From Naegleria gruberi (lineage: Eukaryota): 64,000 nucleotides of DNA. Positions 21,734-28,308 of this stretch are shown one piece after another (the stretch's first letter is position 1; the number at the start of each line of letters is the position of its first letter). The notes below the pieces were generated by a model, which saw only the letters and a program-made list of their open reading frames with translations, was not told the DNA's origin and searched no databases. The position numbers were made by a program, and so were the translations under genes. The stretch lies in the NCBI GenBank assembly GCA_000004985.1, contig GG738881.1; one strand, 5' to 3'.

Positions 21734-22864
21734 ATGCCATCATTCAATCAGGCCATAAATTTACCATCAGCAACTCGGACATCACTTCTCACGTTAACAA
21801 AACGAACACTTATTGGAATTGACATCCTAGTACTTGTTGTTCCTTCAATAGTTTTTGCAATTTGGTCCTCAATTTTATTATACGATACTATCAAGATTGA
21901 TAATTCTCTATTGATTAAAAATTCAAAGAATTATTCGGATCCATTTTCAGTTATTATTGATGAAAATAATAATTCATCAAGTATTTTTAATTCTACAGCT
22001 GTTTTTGCTAATCAAGACACTGGCAGTTATGTTCCATTGATTTTTCAATGTTTGACATTTTCGATTTTGTTTGGATTGACTATAGCTGATTGGTTGAATG
22101 TTTTGATTGTGAGTTTTGGAGGTGAAATTTGTGAAAGATTTGCATTGTGGAGATGGAAACAGAAAAAGATAAAGGAAAATCCATCACTAGTATTTTCAGA
22201 AGAGACAAATGAGAGGGCAGAGATGGAGGATGCTGCAACAGATGCCAACATTCCACCAATTAATGAACATTGGATTGATGAGGATGATACCTGTGAAATG
22301 GCTCAAACTACTTGTTTGGCTCATGGTGGTTTCATTATTGTGAAATGGATCATTATGGGAGGTATCATTTTGGGTCTCTTTTCTTGGTTTACCTATGAAT
22401 TATTGACGACCAATAATAGATTGAAAGGTGGCAAGAGTATTCTCTCTGGACATGATAACAATACCATAATTGGAAACCCTGCAGTTGGTTCACTTGATTC
22501 AACCTCTGCCTATTGGATCAATTCTCAATTGGCAACACCACTCAACACCACCACCAACACAACCATGGATGCTTGTGCTACCTTATTTTTCACACCAGTT
22601 GGAACCAAAAGTGGCTCTTCCTTTCTAATGCAACGTTCCAAAATCTCTTCCTTTGGAGATTCTGTTTTCATTTACATGTTGGTGAGATGGTTAATCTTTG
22701 GTTTGTCTCTCCTCATTTCAATTTCTGTTAGTATCCTTGTTGCTTGCTTTGGGTGTTGCACCTGTTTCTCTGAGAAGAATAACAAGAAACGAAAATCAAA
22801 TAGAATTGGAGAAAATGTAATCTATCGACCTCTTTCCACTCTATCCGATGAAGAAGACGATTAA
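21734..22864 (+). CDS. Hypothetical polytopic membrane protein, about 376 aa
   Basis: First ATG at 21734 (MPSFNQ); the ORF-finder start is a TTG. About 4 predicted TM helices and an N-glycosylation-rich loop. No recognisable domain. Confidence 0.45.
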   Translation: MPSFNQAINLPSATRTSLLTLTKRTLIGIDILVLVVPSIVFAIWSSILLYDTIKIDNSLLIKNSKNYSDPFSVIIDENNNSSSIFNSTAVFANQDTGSYVPLIFQCLTFSILFGLTIADWLNVLIVSFGGEICERFALWRWKQKKIKENPSLVFSEETNERAEMEDAATDANIPPINEHWIDEDDTCEMAQTTCLAHGGFIIVKWIIMGGIILGLFSWFTYELLTTNNRLKGGKSILSGHDNNTIIGNPAVGSLDSTSAYWINSQLATPLNTTTNTTMDACATLFFTPVGTKSGSSFLMQRSKISSFGDSVFIYMLVRWLIFGLSLLISISVSILVACFGCCTCFSEKNNKKRKSNRIGENVIYRPLSTLSDEEDD

Positions 22865-23234: not shown

Positions 23235-23740
23235 ATGCCTCTTAAGAATTGTTTGATAGATTTTGCAGCCTATTTATTTTGTCCTAATGGTTGGTCGTCA
23301 TCAGCCAAATCGGAATCAAAGAGAAGAGTTTCAAGATGGAAGAACTTCTTCACCGATAAGGATTCTAGAAGAAATCATATTGCATCAGAATGGAGAAAAT
23401 ACCTGGTGGTTATCCTGTATGTGTTGATCAATATAGGATTATTCATTGAGGCTGCGTGGAGATGGCACGACATAATCGAACCTGTTGCAAACAGTCTAAC
23501 AGCCTTCCCAAAGGAAGATCGACTTAGGATTACTTGGTATGTTACCTTTGCTAGAGGTTTTGGGCAATTGCTGAATTTCAACTCGGCTCTCTTGATTGTT
23601 CCAACAATGAGAACCCTCTCCAATACATTGAGAACATTGAAATTAGGAAACATTATTACACTCGATAAGAATACCGTCTTCCACAGGTATATTGCCTATT
23701 GGATTGTTGTTTGCACTGTTGGGCACGGATTCTTCCACTA
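23235..23740 (+). CDS. NADPH oxidase (NOX/ferric-reductase family), exon 1: TM helices 1-3
   Basis: ARGFGQLLNFNSALLIVPTMRTLSNTLR and FHRYIAYWIVVCTVGH align with NOX2 helices bearing the haem-binding His. Donor CACTA|GTAAGT, phase 2. Confidence 0.75.
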
Positions 23741-23791
23741 GTAAGTTATTCATTTCTTAACATTTACCAAAAATACTGTTTTTCTTAATAG

Positions 23792-24252
23792 TTTGAATTA
23801 TGCTAGCTATTACTTTGCCTATACTAATACACAAACCAAGGTTGAAAATTCCTTCATGGCCTGTTGGATTCAAAAGTATGGTATTACTGGTAACTTATTG
23901 TGTTTGGTCATGTACTTGATGTATGCCACAAGTCATGCAAATTATAGAAGAACCAAGAATTATACTGTTTTTTGGTATACTCACCACTTGTTTATTGTGT
24001 TCTATGTTCTTTTGCTTGTTCACGGAAAAGTGTTTTGGATTTGGTTTTTGGGACCTTGTGTCTTGTACTTGTTTGAAAGAATTTTGAGAAATGTTAGAGG
24101 TTCTGAGGAAACCATTGTAAAGAAAGTCAATTGTTTACCGAGTAGAGTATTGGAATTAGTATTGGAAAAACCAAGATTTGATTATCGTGCTGGTCAATAT
24201 TGTTTCATTAATTGTCCACTTATCAGTAGATTTGAGTGGCATGCTATGACTA
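23792..24252 (+). CDS. NADPH oxidase, exon 2: TM4-6 and start of FAD-binding domain
   Basis: Acceptor TTCTTAATAG|T. HHLFIVFYVLLLVHG (second haem-His pair), then ...RAGQYCFINCPLISRFEWHAMT. Donor ACTA|GTAAGT, phase 1. Confidence 0.7.
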
Positions 24253-24296
24253 GTAAGTTTTTAAAATAGTTTTCATTTTCTAGAAAAAGAAAATAG

Positions 24297-24480
24297 TTTC
24301 TTCTGCTCCTGAAGATGAATATTTACATTTCCACATCAAGTGTGCTGGAGATTGGACTAATGCTGTAATGGACTTGTTCAATCCTAAACAACATCAAACC
24401 GTTGTAATTGATAAACCAATGACACCTGACAATAAGGATTATTTGATAAAAATTGATGGTCCTTTCGGTACTGCAGCAGA
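24297..24480 (+). CDS. NADPH oxidase, exon 3: FAD-binding subdomain
   Basis: ISSAPEDEYLHFHIKCAGDWTNAV...IDGPFGTAAE. The acceptor is ambiguous: AAAATAG|TT at 24297, or TTCTAG|AA at 24284, which also stays in frame. Donor GCAGA|GTAAGT, phase 2. Confidence 0.55.
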
Positions 24481-24524
24481 GTAAGTTGTTAAACGAATCA
24501 ATGGCTTATTTGAAAATGTAATAG

Positions 24525-25266
24525 TGAGGTATTTGACTATGAAACAGTTGTTTTAATTGCAGCTGGTATTGGTGCTACACCATATGCATCTTTGTTGAAA
24601 CATTTTAATTATACGTTGGATCTTGAAAAGAGAGGAGGAAAGCCATTGAAGATTAAGAAATGTTTCTTCTACTTTATTAATAGAGATCACGGAAGTTGGG
24701 AATGGTTTTCTAACTTGTTGAATGAAATGGAAGACCATCACCCTGAATTTTTCGAGCTCAATACATACATGACTGGTAAATTGAAGGCAGAAGAAATTAA
24801 AAAGCTCTATTTCGGAAGTTCTGAATATCAACAAGCTACTGGTCACAAACAAACTGCTGATGTTCTTTTGAGAGCCATGTATGACTATACACCTGTTAGT
24901 TCTGATGAGTTGGAACTCCATGCCAATGATATCATTTCTTTGAAGGAACAAGACGAATCTGGATGGTGGGAAGGAACCAATCTCACTACCAATGAATCTG
25001 GTTTATTCCCAAGCAATTACGTTATTCACATTGATGCACTCACCAAGTTGAGAGAAAATAAGAATCGTCACTATGGTAGACCAGATTGGGAAAGAGATTT
25101 GGCTTCTGTTAGAAATTATGCAGAAAAGGCTCATACTCGTAAGGGAAGAGCTAAGGTTGGTGTCTTTGTTTGTGGTCCTCCAGCATTGTCAAAGGATGTC
25201 TATTCGTACTCTTTATCTATGAGTAGTCCTACTGTTCAATTCGTTTATCACAAGGAAAACTTTTAA
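24525..25266 (+). CDS. NADPH oxidase, exon 4: NADPH-binding domain with an embedded SH3 domain
   Basis: Acceptor AATGTAATAG|T gives D-EVFDYETVVLIAAGIGATPYASLLKHF, matching NOX2 [27 protein letters not shown]. An in-frame SH3 domain follows (ALYDYTP...GWWEG...GLFPSNYV). Then the NOX C-terminus HYGRPDWER...GVFVCGPPALSK...FVYHKENF. Confidence 0.7.
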
Positions 25267-25396: not shown

Positions 25397-25754
25397 ATGC
25401 CACACATTGCAGTAGAAGGATGTTGTCATGGTGATCTCGACAAGATCTATGCAACACTAGAGCATGCCATTGAACAAAAACAATTAAAGGATCAACAAGA
25501 ATTAGCCTTGAAATCTGTCGAATCGGATGATGATTTTTTAAATGCTCTCGAAGAATACAAAAAACCAAGCATTGATCTCTTACTTGTTTGTGGAGATTTT
25601 GAATGTATTAGACATGCAGATGATTTAAATAGTATGAGTGTACCTGATAAATATAAGGAATGGAAGGATTTTCACAAATATTTCCCTCAAAGTCAACTCC
25701 GAAAGGAAGGAGAAGAAACTAAAGTAGCACCAATGCCAACATTATTCATTGGAG
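25397..25754 (+). CDS. DBR1: Lariat debranching enzyme DBR1, exon 1
   Basis: MPHIAVEGCCHGDLDKIYATLE, the metallophosphoesterase motif I-II region of DBR1. Donor GGAG|GTTTGT, phase 1. Confidence 0.8.
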
Positions 25755-25859
25755 GTTTGTTTTTTTAATTTCAACACATAATTCTAATTTACATTGGATT
25801 AATTTTCATCTAATCTGGTAAAATATGATGATGATGAATTTTAATAATTAATATTTTAG

Positions 25860-27034
25860 GAAATCATGAAGCTAGTCTCTACTTGATGAGTTTACCATTT
25901 GGTGGATTTGTGACTGATAAAATTTATTTTATGGGAAATTGTGGATTTGTTCAATTCAAGAAGAAGTTTTCAAATGGTAGAATGACCAGTATGAGAATTG
26001 GAGGTTGGAGTGGAATTTATAAGGATAATGATTTTTGGAAGGATAGTGCAAGATTTTTACTTCCAAAACAAGAAAAGGGACTCGCTCAGGAAGAAGATAC
26101 AAACCTAGGAACTACTCTGTTCGATGAACAACATGTACCATTCTCTGAGAATGCAAAGAGAAGTGTTTATCATGTGAGATTTTTCGAATTTTGGAAAATA
26201 ATGAATATGAAACTATGTTTGAAAGCTAAAGAAGAAAGTCAACCTCTTGATATTTTCCTTTCGCATGATTGGCCAACTGGAGTGACTAGACATGGTGATT
26301 TGACAAATATTAGACGTTTTAAGGATCATGTAATGAAGGAAATTGAGGAATCAGATCACAAACTTGGAAATCCTTGGGGAGAGAAATTATTGACCGAATT
26401 AGAGCCAAAGTTTTGGTTTGCTGCCCACATGCATTGTAAATTCTCCTCCGTTGTTACACATACAGAGACAGTTTCTCAATCTAGCACTTTGAAGAAGAAT
26501 ACCAAATTCCTTGCTCTGGATAAGTGTTTACCAAAGAGAGACTTTTTACAAATGGTTGATATGGATCACTATATTGAATACGCCAACCACGATGAACTAT
26601 TGGAAAATGAAAAGGAAGGAGAATACTATTTTGATTTGGATTGGCTTGCCATCACAAAATTGTTCCATGCCTACAGATATGAAATCTCCAAATTATTGAA
26701 ACAACCAAATATTCAAAAGATTCAAAGAAATGCCGATCAACTAGACAAGAATTTCAATTATTCTCAAATTGTAGAACACGTCAACTCTACGCCTCTCCCA
26801 TTCATAAAGAGTAGAATGTATCCTCTCTTCACTTTGGAAGAAATTGAGAAGGAAAAGAATTGGATTCTCGAGAGAAGTAAGACCTATGATGATGGAAAGT
26901 TTGCCAATTTGCGTATCCCAATACCAACAAGCTATTCTTTGGGTGCTTTGAATGGTAATGTAAATGAAAGATTGCCACTTCAAATGAATCCTCAAACTGT
27001 TGAACTATTGGACTTTCTTGGATTGAATGAATAA
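25860..27034 (+). CDS. DBR1: DBR1, exon 2
   Basis: Acceptor ATATTTTAG|G gives FIGG-NHEASLYLMSLPFGG (GNHE motif). DBR1-specific C-terminal domain. Intron 25755-25859 (105 nt). Confidence 0.8.
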
Positions 27035-27260: not shown

Positions 27261-28025
27261 TTACAGTCCAGGTCCGAGTGGAACTCTGTGAATTACTGAA
27301 AAACTAGTTTCCTTATCAGGTCTGTAAATAAGACAAACTTCATTCACTCTGACAGTGACAGGTTTCCATTTAGAATTTAGTTCCTTAACCTTCTTTTCCA
27401 CAAACTTTAAAGCTTGTTGTCCAACAGTCAAGTGAGGCACAAATTCACCCTTCTCATTCTTCTTCTCATCACAATATGGAAATAGTTCTGCAATCAATGC
27501 TTGCACTTGTTGCAATTTCTTTATACTTTCCTCATCCTGATCCAACCACATAACACTCGAATTCTTGGCAAAATAATTCACTCCACTAAATGTAATATCA
27601 AACGGCTCAACACGTGCCAATTTCTCCCTAATTAATTCCTGAGCTTGTTCAAAGTATTGCTCTGGAATGAACGGAAAGAGGAAATTAATGTGTGGAGGCC
27701 ATCTTTCATAAGCTTTATCCATCACTGATCTCATCTCTTGAATAGGTTCCCATATTTCTGTTGGTGCAATAAAACAACAAGCTGTATGGAAAGCCTTTGA
27801 TGAATTATTCTTTACATCTGAAGAGGATGATGAAAATATATTTCCAAATGTTGATTCAATTTCTGTGGTTCCGTACTCCATCAAGAGTGCTTCCTTTTCC
27901 TTCTTACCATTATTCTTCTTCTTTTGATTATTATTTAAATTATTGTTATTATTATTAGCTTGTGATGGTGATGAGGCAACATGTTGAGAGGAGAATGAAA
28001 ATTGTTTAGATGTGGATGACGACAT
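27261..28025 (-). CDS. 2H-phosphoesterase (LigT / cyclic-phosphodiesterase-like) protein, about 254 aa
   Basis: Start placed at the internal Met MSSSTSKQF at 28025. The ORF-finder's 91-aa N-terminal extension lacks coding character. LigT-like layout: FIAPTE...RWPPHINFLFPF (variant first motif, H-x-N-x) and HLTVGQ (canonical H-x-T-x). Confidence 0.5.
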   Translation of the reverse strand: MSSSTSKQFSFSSQHVASSPSQANNNNNNLNNNQKKKNNGKKEKEALLMEYGTTEIESTFGNIFSSSSSDVKNNSSKAFHTACCFIAPTEIWEPIQEMRSVMDKAYERWPPHINFLFPFIPEQYFEQAQELIREKLARVEPFDITFSGVNYFAKNSSVMWLDQDEESIKKLQQVQALIAELFPYCDEKKNEKGEFVPHLTVGQQALKFVEKKVKELNSKWKPVTVRVNEVCLIYRPDKETSFSVIHRVPLGPGL

Positions 28026-28308
28026 GATTAATAATGATTCTGCAGCTAGTACTTGTCTAATTAAATTATTCGTTATTGTCTTGTTTTTAAATAATATGAA
28101 ACTCTTTGATCGGAGCAAACGCGAGTTGTAACTTTTTAAAATAAATTTTTTCATGATATCAATTTTGGAAATGCACAGTTTGATAAGCTTGAAAGTTTGA
28201 TTATCAACTTGCACCTTCACATCATTGTATAAGTGGCGTGTAATATTAACACAATACATTACAAAGATTACAATACAGATATTTTGTAAAAGTTTCACTT
28301 GTTGATTG

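What the first reader, a model, noticed from the sequence alone, without database searches (positions are those of the whole stretch)
24775..25067. NADPH oxidase with an SH3 domain inserted in-frame inside its NADPH-binding dehydrogenase domain
Exon 4 of the NOX gene is one continuous reading frame with no intron.

Between the conserved ...NTYMTG and HYGRPDWER...GVFVCGP segments it carries an insertion of about 95 aa relative to NOX2.

The core of the insertion, about 24856-25038, is a textbook SH3 domain: ALYDYTP...SFKKGD-like LRAMYDYTPVSSDELELHANDIISL...GWWEG...GLFPSNYV.

In animals NOX2 is regulated in trans by the SH3-containing organisers p47phox, p67phox and p40phox. Here an SH3 module is part of the catalytic subunit itself. 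This suggests cis-recruitment of a proline-rich partner, or an autoinhibitory intramolecular contact. I do not know of a described NOX with this architecture.
Basis: seen in the sequence. Interest (0 to 1): 0.75.

Follow-up and report, generated by a model that had tools for sequence, protein, structure and literature searches.

The report
Naegleria NADPH oxidase with built-in SH3
The window holds the Naegleria gruberi NADPH oxidase gene, whose NADPH-binding domain really does carry a complete SH3 protein-docking module in a known regulatory loop; this layout is conserved across a whole protist lineage but was already reported in 2013 and has never been tested functionally.

Summary
A 4-exon gene (23235-25266, +) encodes a 630-aa NOX identical to the annotated N. 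gruberi protein XP_002674855.1 / D2VLT6. Pfam calls the ferric-reductase, FAD and NAD domains, plus an SH3 at aa 500-547 (E 9e-15) nested inside the NAD domain.

The SH3 sits in the middle of the NOX-specific insertion sequence (NIS, NOX2 ~484-504), a flexible regulatory loop. The net insertion is about 68-70 aa, not about 95.

All 23 SH3-bearing homologues found carry the SH3 at the same point. Named members are Naegleria, Willaertia, Acrasis, Pharyngomonas and Percolomonas (Heterolobosea) and the jakobid Andalucia. None of 31 other NOX has it. On columns outside the insert, the 21 full-length members form one clade (100/100 bootstraps). The peptide-binding residues are conserved.

The novelty claim fails. 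Zhang et al. [quoted passage not shown]

Most likely the SH3 is a cis-encoded docking site for a proline-rich regulator at the NIS. That function is inferred, not shown.

Additions here:
- the exact NIS location;
- the breadth across Discoba and the single origin;
- a co-occurring basic loop at aa 586-594.

Interest is modest.

The parts
23235..25266 (+). N. gruberi NoxA-type NADPH oxidase gene (NAEGRDRAFT_69894), 630 aa. Exons 23235-23740, 23792-24252, 24297-24480 and 24525-25266. Introns 23741-23791, 24253-24296 and 24481-24524.
   Evidence: Splice model and translation. 100% identity to XP_002674855.1 / D2VLT6. tblastn of the product back onto the window.
23628..24014 (+). Ferric-reductase transmembrane domain, aa 132-243, spanning intron 1. 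Heme-ligating His150/His164 and His233/His246. Arg107 and His168 align with NOX2 Arg54 and His119.
   Evidence: Pfam PF01794, E 1.2e-13. Invariant columns in alignment A1. Residue-by-residue alignment to NOX2.
24117..24475 (+). FAD-binding domain, aa 278-382, spanning intron 2. It includes the variant 'HAMT' motif (24240-24251) in place of HPFT, and a KPMTP loop (24413-24427).
   Evidence: Pfam PF08022, E 1e-19. Alignments. PxxP scan.
24538..25212 (+). NADPH-binding domain, aa 389-613, interrupted by the SH3. Contains GIGATP (398-403), CGP (600-602) and the C-terminal KENF (627-630, just beyond the Pfam envelope).
   Evidence: Pfam PF08030, E 2.1e-42, covering model positions 1-155 of 156 across the insertion. 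Motif positions.
24778..24825 (+). Left half of the NIS loop, aa 469-484 (KLKAEEIKKLYFGSSE). Homologous to the NIS of NOX that lack an SH3; predicted helical.
   Evidence: Alignments. AF2 helices at 472-481 and 483-489.
24826..24861 (+). Variable linker, aa 485-496 (YQQATGHKQTAD); the start of the clade-specific insertion.
   Evidence: Mean pairwise identity of only 0.13 for aa 485-498 among 22 orthologues. pLDDT about 78-83.
24862..25032 (+). SH3 domain, aa 497-553. Contains AMYDY, the SDEL acidic residues of the RT loop, GWWEG and LFPSNYV.
   Evidence: Pfam SH3_1, SH3_9 and SH3_2. Fyn and CD2AP SH3 hits in the PDB. Five predicted strands with pLDDT 93-96. Binding-surface residues conserved across 23 orthologues.
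25033..25071 (+). Right half of the NIS loop, aa 554-566 (DALTKLRENKNRH), leading into YGRPDW. Asp554 and Thr557 are invariant across the 17 NOX of alignment A1 and at least 90% conserved across the 54 of A2.
   Evidence: Alignments.
25129..25155 (+). Second clade-specific insertion: a basic loop, aa 586-594 (AHTRKGRAK), immediately before the strand VGVFVCGP.
   Evidence: Present in 23 of 23 SH3-bearing NOX, usually as '+RP+VG'. Among 31 other NOX only 1 has an insertion here, and it is unrelated. pLDDT 94-96.

Best explanation
What it is: the Naegleria gruberi NoxA-type NADPH oxidase (no EF-hands). A complete, canonical SH3 domain has been inserted into the NOX-specific insertion sequence (NIS) of its dehydrogenase domain. 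The NIS is the flexible loop between the strand ending ...YMTG and the YGRPxW motif. The insertion is ancient, happened once, and is kept under selection in Heterolobosea and jakobids.

How it most likely works: the SH3 is a docking site built into the catalytic subunit. It binds a proline-rich or basic motif of a regulatory partner in trans. Candidates are an activator or organiser, the tail of a p22phox-like subunit, or a cytoskeletal adaptor. Binding happens right at the loop which, in animal NOX, modulates hydride transfer from NADPH and the assembly of cytosolic factors. Partner binding would therefore be coupled directly to positioning or activation of the dehydrogenase domain. That would do in cis part of the job that the SH3 domains of p47phox/NOXO1 do in trans.

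Shown here: the gene, the domain, the insertion point, its conservation, its single origin, and the intact binding-surface residues.

Inferred: ligand binding, the identity of the partner, any effect on catalysis, and superoxide production itself.
For: - Gene and domains.
- Insertion point: it lies in the middle of the NIS, with both NIS halves still alignable to Dictyostelium, fungal and animal NOX.
- NIS as a regulatory element: the NIS is described as a flexible regulatory element affecting the first electron-transfer step and the assembly of cytosolic factors (PMC10571032). It is also a site of inhibitory phosphorylation at Ser486 (PMC8228183).
- Distribution: 23 of 23 clade members carry the SH3 at the same position, against 0 of 31 other NOX.
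- Single origin: the 21 full-length members are monophyletic in 100 of 100 bootstraps on 453 columns that exclude the insert, with the jakobid group as sister to the heteroloboseans.
- Binding surface conserved among the 23: Tyr505 in 21, Asp511 and Glu512 in 21 each, Trp531 and Trp532 in all 23, Pro546 in 22, Tyr549 in 15 plus 6 Phe.
- Selection: the SH3 is as conserved as the C-terminal part of the NAD domain (0.49 against 0.50 mean pairwise identity), while the adjacent linker is free to vary (0.13).
- No universally conserved internal PxxP: KPxxP occurs in only 13 of 23 members and is absent from Acrasis and jakobids. This favours a trans ligand.
- Established knowledge (mine, not tested here): the N- and C-termini of an SH3 lie together on the face opposite the peptide groove, so a loop-inserted SH3 presents its groove outward.
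- Prior literature: Zhang et al. 2013 reached the same partner hypothesis.
- Independent case: a second SH3-NOX fusion exists, P0063, with two N-terminal SH3 domains.
Against: - No partner has been identified. Kawahara and Lambeth 2007 found no phox-type regulatory subunit genes in the N. gruberi genome version then available. I could not search Naegleria proteomes for p22phox or NoxR homologues.
- The AF2 model gives fairly high confidence to the linkers (78-86) and to the co-occurring basic loop (94-96). That is compatible with the SH3 being packed on the dehydrogenase domain, i.e. a structural or autoinhibitory role. Coordinates and PAE were not available, so the orientation is unknown.
- In one close orthologue, Willaertia P0003, several groove residues are degenerate (VLEDY, FRSEHL).
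- Enzyme activity is not demonstrated, and the FAD motif HPFT is HAMT here.
Confidence: 0.55

Rival explanations
1. Intramolecular gate. The SH3 binds a motif of the same polypeptide, or simply docks over the NADPH cleft. Candidate motifs are the clade-specific basic loop at aa 586-594 and the KPxxP loop of the FAD domain. This would hold the dehydrogenase domain inactive until a competing ligand or a phosphorylation event releases it.
For: - The basic loop co-occurs strictly with the SH3: 23 of 23 clade members against 1 of 31 other NOX.
- The RT and n-Src loops of the SH3 are acidic (D511, E512, E525, D527, E528).
- KPxxP is present in 13 of 23 clade members and in none of the 14 nearest non-SH3 NOX shown, P0024-P0038.
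- Linker and loop pLDDT values are high, and pTM is 0.86.
- The NIS was historically modelled as a lid on the NADPH site and is a regulatory phosphorylation site.
Against: - No internal PxxP is conserved across the clade.
- Naegleria's own basic loop has no proline.
- The basic loop fits no known non-canonical SH3 consensus consistently; I checked PxxxRxxKP by eye on the alignment.
- The geometry could not be examined.
Confidence: 0.22
2. Targeting only. The SH3 does not regulate catalysis. It anchors the oxidase to proline-rich actin regulators (WASP/SCAR, formins, myosin-I partners) at phagocytic cups, pseudopods or the contractile vacuole.
For: - The nearest solved SH3 domains come from cytoskeletal or adaptor proteins (CD2AP, sorbin/vinexin, myosin 1E, PACSIN3) as well as from Fyn.
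- The named hosts include phagotrophic amoebae and amoeboflagellates.
- The groove residues are conserved.
Against: - The insertion point is exactly the regulatory NIS rather than a terminus, where a pure targeting module could sit more easily.
- The strictly co-occurring second loop suggests integration with the dehydrogenase domain.
- Jakobids, which also have the SH3, are not amoeboid.
Confidence: 0.15
3. Artefact: a gene-model or assembly chimera, or a retained intron that happens to be open.
For: None beyond the fact that no N. gruberi transcript was examined here.
Against: - The same architecture occurs in 23 proteins from independent genomes and transcriptomes.
- Relatives carry it in single uninterrupted ORFs.
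- The insert's composition matches the rest of the gene, and exon 4 has no donor-like site.
- SH3 E-value is 9e-15.
Confidence: 0.02
4. The protein is a ferric or cupric reductase rather than a ROS-producing NOX, so the SH3 regulates metal reduction.
For: The Pfam domain set is shared by FRE and NOX enzymes. The FAD motif is atypical, HAMT.
Against: - The best sequence and fold matches are NOX2, NOX5 and DUOX.
- His spacing is x13 and x12. Arg107 and His168 align with NOX2 Arg54 and His119, which are O2-site residues by my knowledge of the NOX5 and NOX2 structures.
- The NIS and the C-terminal KENF are present.
- Both evolutionary studies place it in the NOX family with Dictyostelium NoxA/B.
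Confidence: 0.05

Closest known systems
Architecture 'M17' of Zhang et al. 2013 (PLoS One 8:e58126): N. gruberi NOX with an SH3 inside the NADPH-binding domain
   Same: It is the same protein family and the same organism. The architecture and the 'unknown proline-rich partner' hypothesis are both stated there.
   Different: The paper gives a domain-level note only. Not found in the passages retrieved from it (the paper was not read in full):
- placement of the insert in the NIS;
- distribution beyond N. gruberi (other Heterolobosea, jakobids);
- single origin;
- conservation of the groove residues;
- the co-occurring basic loop.
Human NOX2 (gp91phox, cytochrome b-245 heavy chain)
   Same: - Same six-TM bis-heme domain with FAD and NADPH domains (E 1e-66).
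- The AF2 model superposes best on activated-state NOX2, 8wej_B, with TM 0.76 normalised to the target.
- Both lack EF-hands.
- Both have an NIS loop at the same place.
   Different: - The NOX2 NIS is about 20 aa with no domain in it.
- NOX2 relies on SH3 domains carried by separate proteins (p47phox, p67phox, p40phox) and on the proline-rich tail of p22phox.
- Here one SH3 is part of the catalytic chain.
- HPFT is HAMT.
Dictyostelium NoxA/NoxB and fungal NoxA/NoxB (subunit-regulated protist and fungal NOX)
   Same: These are the closest non-SH3 relatives (about 38-40% identity). They have the same length class, the NIS flanks align residue by residue, and both evolutionary studies group them together.
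   Different: They lack the 68-aa SH3 insert and the basic loop. Their known regulators (p22phox/NoxD, p67phox/NoxR) have not been identified for Naegleria.
p47phox / NOXO1 organiser SH3 domains
   Same: These are SH3 modules that assemble an active oxidase by binding a proline-rich region. They are the functional analogy for the proposed mechanism.
   Different: They are separate cytosolic proteins with a tandem SH3, a PX domain and an autoinhibitory region. No orthology with the SH3 found here is implied or was tested.
NOX5 / DUOX / plant RBOH (regulatory module fused to the catalytic chain)
   Same: The logic is the same: a regulatory domain in cis acts on the dehydrogenase domain.
   Different: Their module is an N-terminal Ca2+-binding EF-hand region, not a protein-docking domain nested inside the NADPH domain.

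Membership tests
NADPH oxidase (NOX), EF-hand-less NoxA / NOX1-4 type | Ferric-reductase transmembrane domain with two His pairs for two hemes (spacing x13 in TM3, x12 in TM5) | tested here: met
   PF01794, E 1.2e-13. His150/164 and His233/246 are invariant in A1 and align with NOX2 His101/115 and His209/222. The His positions in NOX2 are as given in PMC3591440.
NADPH oxidase (NOX), EF-hand-less NoxA / NOX1-4 type | FAD-binding domain with the HPFT motif | tested here: inconclusive
   The PF08022 domain is present, E 1e-19. However, the motif reads HAMT (aa 319-322) in Naegleria and in Willaertia P0003, whereas Pro and Phe are at least 90% conserved across the 54 NOX aligned.
NADPH oxidase (NOX), EF-hand-less NoxA / NOX1-4 type | NADPH-binding domain with GxGxxP, CGP and a C-terminal aromatic residue (…KENF) | tested here: met
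   PF08030, E 2e-42. GIGATP at 398, CGP at 600, KENF at 627-630.
NADPH oxidase (NOX), EF-hand-less NoxA / NOX1-4 type | NOX-specific insertion sequence (NIS) in the dehydrogenase domain, absent from FNR-type reductases | tested here: met
   Both NIS halves align with NOX2, NOX1, Dictyostelium and fungal NOX. The definition of the NIS is taken from PMC10571032.
NADPH oxidase (NOX), EF-hand-less NoxA / NOX1-4 type | No N-terminal EF-hand or peroxidase domains | tested here: met
   Pfam scan at E<=0.01 finds none.
NADPH oxidase (NOX), EF-hand-less NoxA / NOX1-4 type | NADPH-dependent superoxide or H2O2 production | not testable with these tools
   Needs an enzyme assay. No functional paper on Naegleria NOX was found.
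SH3 domain (PF00018) | Profile score above Pfam's gathering threshold | tested here: met
   SH3_1 scores 54.5 bits against a cut-off of 22.9. SH3_9 scores 52.8 against 30. SH3_2 scores 36.7 against 21.8.
SH3 domain (PF00018) | Small five-stranded beta-barrel fold | tested here: met
   AF2 strands at 497-501, 520-526, 531-536, 541-546 and 550-553, with pLDDT 93-96. No separate fold search of the isolated domain was run.
SH3 domain (PF00018) | Peptide-groove residues: the ALYDY tyrosines, acidic residues of the RT loop, the first Trp of WW, and the Pro and Tyr of PxNY | tested here: met
   Y503, Y505, D511, E512, W531, P546, N548 and Y549 are present and conserved in 15-23 of 23 orthologues.
SH3 domain (PF00018) | Binding of a PxxP or related ligand | not testable with these tools
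   Needs binding assays or complex prediction with coordinates.
phox-type multi-subunit oxidase (p22phox plus organiser and activator) | Presence of p22phox, p47phox or p67phox/NoxR homologues in the same organism | not tested
   The tools offer no search of a Naegleria proteome by family. Kawahara and Lambeth 2007 reported that none was found in the genome version then available.

The most novel reading that the evidence does not exclude
The SH3 in the NIS, together with its strictly co-occurring basic loop, is a self-contained organiser module that dates back to the common ancestor of Heterolobosea and jakobids. It would let the catalytic subunit itself capture a proline-rich activator or the tail of a p22phox-like partner, giving a subunit-regulated NOX that needs no p47phox-type organiser. 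This would be a third, mechanistically distinct way of switching NOX on, beside Ca2+/EF-hand control and phox-subunit control. It would also be a natural handle on what the NIS loop does.
Probability: 0.3. Interest if true: 0.55.

Novelty: already known. Interest (0 to 1): 0.3.

Why it matters
How the dehydrogenase domain of a NOX is switched on, and what the NIS loop contributes, is still only partly understood, even with the NOX2 cryo-EM structures. A lineage that has placed a protein-docking domain in exactly that loop, and kept it since the common ancestor of Heterolobosea and jakobids, offers a natural experiment. Identifying the SH3 ligand would show whether regulation through the NIS is ancient. 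It would also show whether SH3/proline-rich assembly of oxidases predates animals.

The relevance is also practical, because the same protein exists in the pathogen Naegleria fowleri (77% identical). As a discovery, however, the architecture itself is not new. It was published in 2013 and is visible in automatic Pfam annotation.

Tried and rejected
- Gene-model artefact or retained intron: rejected.
- Conserved internal PxxP ligand: a scan of all 23 clade members found only KPxxP in the FAD-domain loop, in 13 of 23, and nothing universal.
- Basic loop as a non-canonical SH3 ligand: I compared it by eye with the PxxxRxxKP and RxxK consensus motifs and found no consistent fit, so it is left as a hypothesis.
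- Position of the SH3 relative to the NADPH cleft: structure prediction returns only pLDDT and secondary structure, and no coordinates were written to /data.
- Second NOX copy in the window: none found. Zhang et al. mention two N. gruberi orthologues; only one appeared among the 120 hits listed.
- Newer literature: the 2022 NOX family phylogeny does not mention SH3 or Naegleria, and no functional study of Naegleria NOX turned up.
- Extra transmembrane segment of P0063 as a fused p22phox: I tested it against human p22phox recalled from memory. BLASTP gave a weak collinear match (E 0.004 for that single comparison, 18% identity). There was no Pfam hit and no PDB sequence hit. Unresolved.
- Phylogeny: a first Biopython bootstrap run timed out and was redone with numpy distances.
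- Search for p22phox or NoxR in Naegleria: not attempted. The word-indexed protein search would list only close relatives of any query I could supply.

Full report
**What is in the sequence**

Around 23.2-25.3 kb the + strand carries a four-exon gene: 23235-23740, 23792-24252, 24297-24480 and 24525-25266. Its three short AT-rich introns (51, 44 and 44 nt) all have the form GTAAGT...TAG. The spliced frame gives a 630-aa protein that is 100% identical over its whole length to the annotated Naegleria gruberi protein XP_002674855.1 / EFC42111.1 / UniProt D2VLT6 (NAEGRDRAFT_69894). The window is therefore N. gruberi nuclear DNA, and my model equals the public one.

Pfam calls Ferric_reduct (aa 132-243), FAD_binding_8 (278-382) and NAD_binding_6 (389-613, E 2e-42, covering model positions 1-155 of 156). 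Nested inside the last one it calls SH3_1 at 500-547 (E 8.7e-15, 54.5 bits against a gathering score of 22.9), together with SH3_9 and SH3_2. Against PDB sequences the protein matches NOX2 at E 1e-66. The alignment stops at residue 469 and resumes at 553, and the intervening part matches the SH3 domains of Fyn, CD2AP, sorbin, myosin-1E and Grb2/Sem-5 at E down to 2e-11.

**Where exactly the SH3 sits**

Alignments with 16 and then 53 other NOX show that both flanks of the insert are homologous to the loop that every NOX has between the strand ...Y(L/M)TG and the motif (Y/F)GRPxW:

- The left flank, KLKAEEIKKLYFGSSE (469-484), aligns with ALSAQEIRDVMYGDEE in Dictyostelium NoxA.
- The right flank, DALTKLRENKNRH (554-566), aligns with DLITGFTTPTQ in Dictyostelium NoxA and with DVITGLKQKTL in NOX2.

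This loop is the NADPH-oxidase insertion sequence (NIS, NOX2 about 484-504). The literature describes it as a NOX-specific, flexible element that is not resolved in structures. Its alteration affects the first electron-transfer step and the assembly of cytosolic factors (PMC10571032), and it contains the inhibitory phosphosite Ser486 (PMC8228183).

The clade-specific insertion is aa 485-552. It consists of a variable 12-aa linker followed by the SH3. In window coordinates the SH3 is 24862-25032.

**It is not an artefact**

- Exon 4 has no donor-like site, and the insert has the same GC and GC3 as the rest of the gene.
- The same architecture is found in 23 database proteins.
- These include transcript-derived sequences from Pharyngomonas kirbyi and Percolomonas sp..
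- They also include genes that are single uninterrupted ORFs on genomic contigs (P0021, P0006).

**It is a working NOX by every sequence criterion I could test**

- The four heme histidines are present (150/164 and 233/246, spacing x13 and x12).
- Arg107 and His168 align with NOX2 Arg54 and His119.
- GIGATP, CGP and the C-terminal KENF are all present.
- An AlphaFold2 model built on a 54-sequence alignment is confident (mean pLDDT 91, pTM 0.86).
- That model superposes best on the activated-state NOX2 structure 8wej_B, followed by resting NOX2, DUOX1 and NOX5.
- One oddity: the FAD-site motif HPFT reads HAMT in Naegleria and in one Willaertia paralogue.

**Conservation and origin**

All 23 SH3-bearing proteins carry the domain at the same alignment position. 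None of the 31 other NOX in the alignment does. The named members are N. gruberi, N. fowleri, N. lovaniensis, Willaertia magna (two paralogues), Acrasis kona, Pharyngomonas and Percolomonas (all Heterolobosea), plus Andalucia godoyi (Jakobida).

I built a neighbour-joining tree on 453 columns that exclude the NIS/SH3 region and the basic loop described below. The 21 full-length SH3-bearing NOX form one clade in 100 of 100 bootstraps. The Andalucia group is sister to the rest, roughly as in the organismal tree. The simplest reading is a single insertion before Heterolobosea and jakobids diverged, followed by vertical inheritance.

Within the clade the SH3 is as conserved as the C-terminal part of the NAD domain (mean pairwise identity 0.49 against 0.50). 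The linker in front of it is essentially free to vary (0.13).

The residues that form the peptide groove of canonical SH3 domains are retained among the 23:

| Residue | Conserved in |
|---|---|
| Tyr503 | 16 |
| Tyr505 | 21 |
| Asp511 and Glu512 (RT loop) | 21 each |
| Trp531, Trp532, Gly534 | 23 each |
| Pro546 | 22 |
| Asn548 | 18 |
| Tyr549 | 15, plus 6 Phe |

That pattern points to selection for ligand binding, not merely for a folded spacer.

**A second clade-specific feature**

All 23 SH3-bearing NOX also have a 7-14-residue basic insertion just before the strand VGVFxCGP. In N. gruberi it is 586-AHTRKGRAK-594; in most others it reads ...K(K/S)RP(K/R)VG. Only one of the 31 other NOX has any insertion there, and that one is unrelated. 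The loop is modelled with high confidence.

In addition, a KPxxP motif in a loop of the FAD domain (KPMTP, 362-366) occurs in 13 of 23 members, but not in Acrasis or the jakobids. Either element could be a docking surface or an intramolecular ligand for the SH3. I could not test this, because the structure tool returns neither coordinates nor PAE.

**Mechanism**

I commit to the following as most likely, at roughly 55% including its targeting variant's overlap. The SH3 is a cis-encoded docking site that captures a proline-rich or basic motif of a partner in trans. It does so at the very loop that modulates dehydrogenase-domain activity, so that partner binding is coupled to activation or positioning of the domain.

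Support for this reading:
- the groove is conserved;
- no universally conserved internal PxxP exists;
- the insertion is at a regulatory loop rather than at a terminus;
- in SH3 domains the two termini lie together on the face opposite the groove, so a loop-inserted SH3 points its groove outward (general structural knowledge, mine, not tested here).

The main rival, at about 22%, is an intramolecular gate that uses the co-occurring basic loop. A pure localisation role stands at about 15%. A ferric-reductase identity and an artefact are both unlikely. No step beyond the anatomy is experimentally shown.

**Comparison with what is known, and novelty**

The closest non-SH3 relatives are Dictyostelium NoxA/B-type and fungal NoxA/B enzymes. 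Kawahara and Lambeth (2007) named the gene N. gruberi NoxA and found no phox-type regulatory subunit genes in the genome version then available.

The finding as stated is already known.

I found no functional follow-up. A 2022 family-wide phylogeny does not mention the SH3.

This analysis adds four incremental points:
- the insert lies in the NIS;
- the architecture spans Heterolobosea and jakobids;
- it has a single origin;
- a basic loop co-occurs with it.

I rate interest at 0.3. The feature is a real, neat and untested piece of biology, but it is neither new nor, by itself, decisive for an open question.

**Side observation bearing on the theme**

A 951-aa protist protein (P0063, TSA GILJ01008301, organism not identified here) is a NOX with two SH3 domains at its N-terminus. 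An additional four-helix membrane segment lies between them and the NOX core. That segment aligns collinearly but weakly with human p22phox as I recalled its sequence (BLASTP E 0.004 for the single comparison, 18% identity). It is followed by a Pro/Lys-rich stretch, but has no Pfam or PDB sequence support. It shows that SH3-NOX fusions arose more than once. Whether it is a p22phox fusion remains open.

Noticed in passing
window 25129-25155 (aa 586-594): A short basic loop (AHTRKGRAK; '+RP+VG' in most relatives) is inserted before the VGVFxCGP strand in all 23 SH3-bearing NOX, and in only 1 of 31 others, where the insertion is unrelated. It co-occurs strictly with the SH3. Its role is unknown; it may be a docking surface or an intramolecular ligand.
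   Followed up: partly
window 24240-24251 (aa 319-322): The FAD-site motif HPFT, whose Pro and Phe are at least 90% conserved across the 54 NOX aligned, reads HAMT in N. gruberi, N. fowleri and Willaertia P0003. To my knowledge, substitutions at the His and Pro of this motif cause chronic granulomatous disease in human NOX2, so the variant is unexpected in an active enzyme.
   Followed up: no
window 24413-24427 (aa 362-366): A KPMTP (KPxxP) motif sits in a loop of the FAD-binding domain. It is present in 13 of 23 SH3-bearing NOX and absent from the nearest non-SH3 NOX, but it is not universal in the clade.
   Followed up: partly
P0063 (EukProt, TSA GILJ01008301.1; not in the window): A 951-aa NOX from an unidentified protist has two N-terminal SH3 domains and an extra ~4-TM segment (aa ~240-370) followed by a Pro/Lys-rich stretch. 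The segment aligns weakly and collinearly with human p22phox (BLASTP E 0.004 for a single comparison) but has no Pfam or PDB support. It is possibly an SH3-SH3/p22-like/NOX single-chain fusion.
   Followed up: partly
Willaertia magna P0003 (orthologue, not in the window): In this closest non-Naegleria orthologue the SH3 groove residues are partly degenerate (VLEDY for ALYDY; FRSEHL for FPSNYV). This suggests relaxed or altered ligand specificity in one paralogue.
   Followed up: no
window 25397-27034 (+): The gene starting only about 130 bp downstream of the NOX stop codon is the lariat debranching enzyme DBR1 (Pfam DBR1 C-terminal domain, E 2e-20). It has at least one short intron, near 25750-25860 (boundaries read by eye). 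The genome is very compact here.
   Followed up: partly
window 27261-28295 (-): This ORF has a 2'-5' RNA ligase / LigT-like phosphoesterase domain (PF13563, E 3e-38), next to DBR1. Two RNA 2'-5'-bond enzymes are adjacent; this is probably coincidence.
   Followed up: no
window 21695-22864 (+) and 18937-21507 (-): Two long ORFs upstream of the NOX gene have no Pfam match at E<=0.001. One is 389 aa and looks by eye like a membrane protein with Asn/Thr-rich stretches. The other is 856 aa.
   Followed up: no
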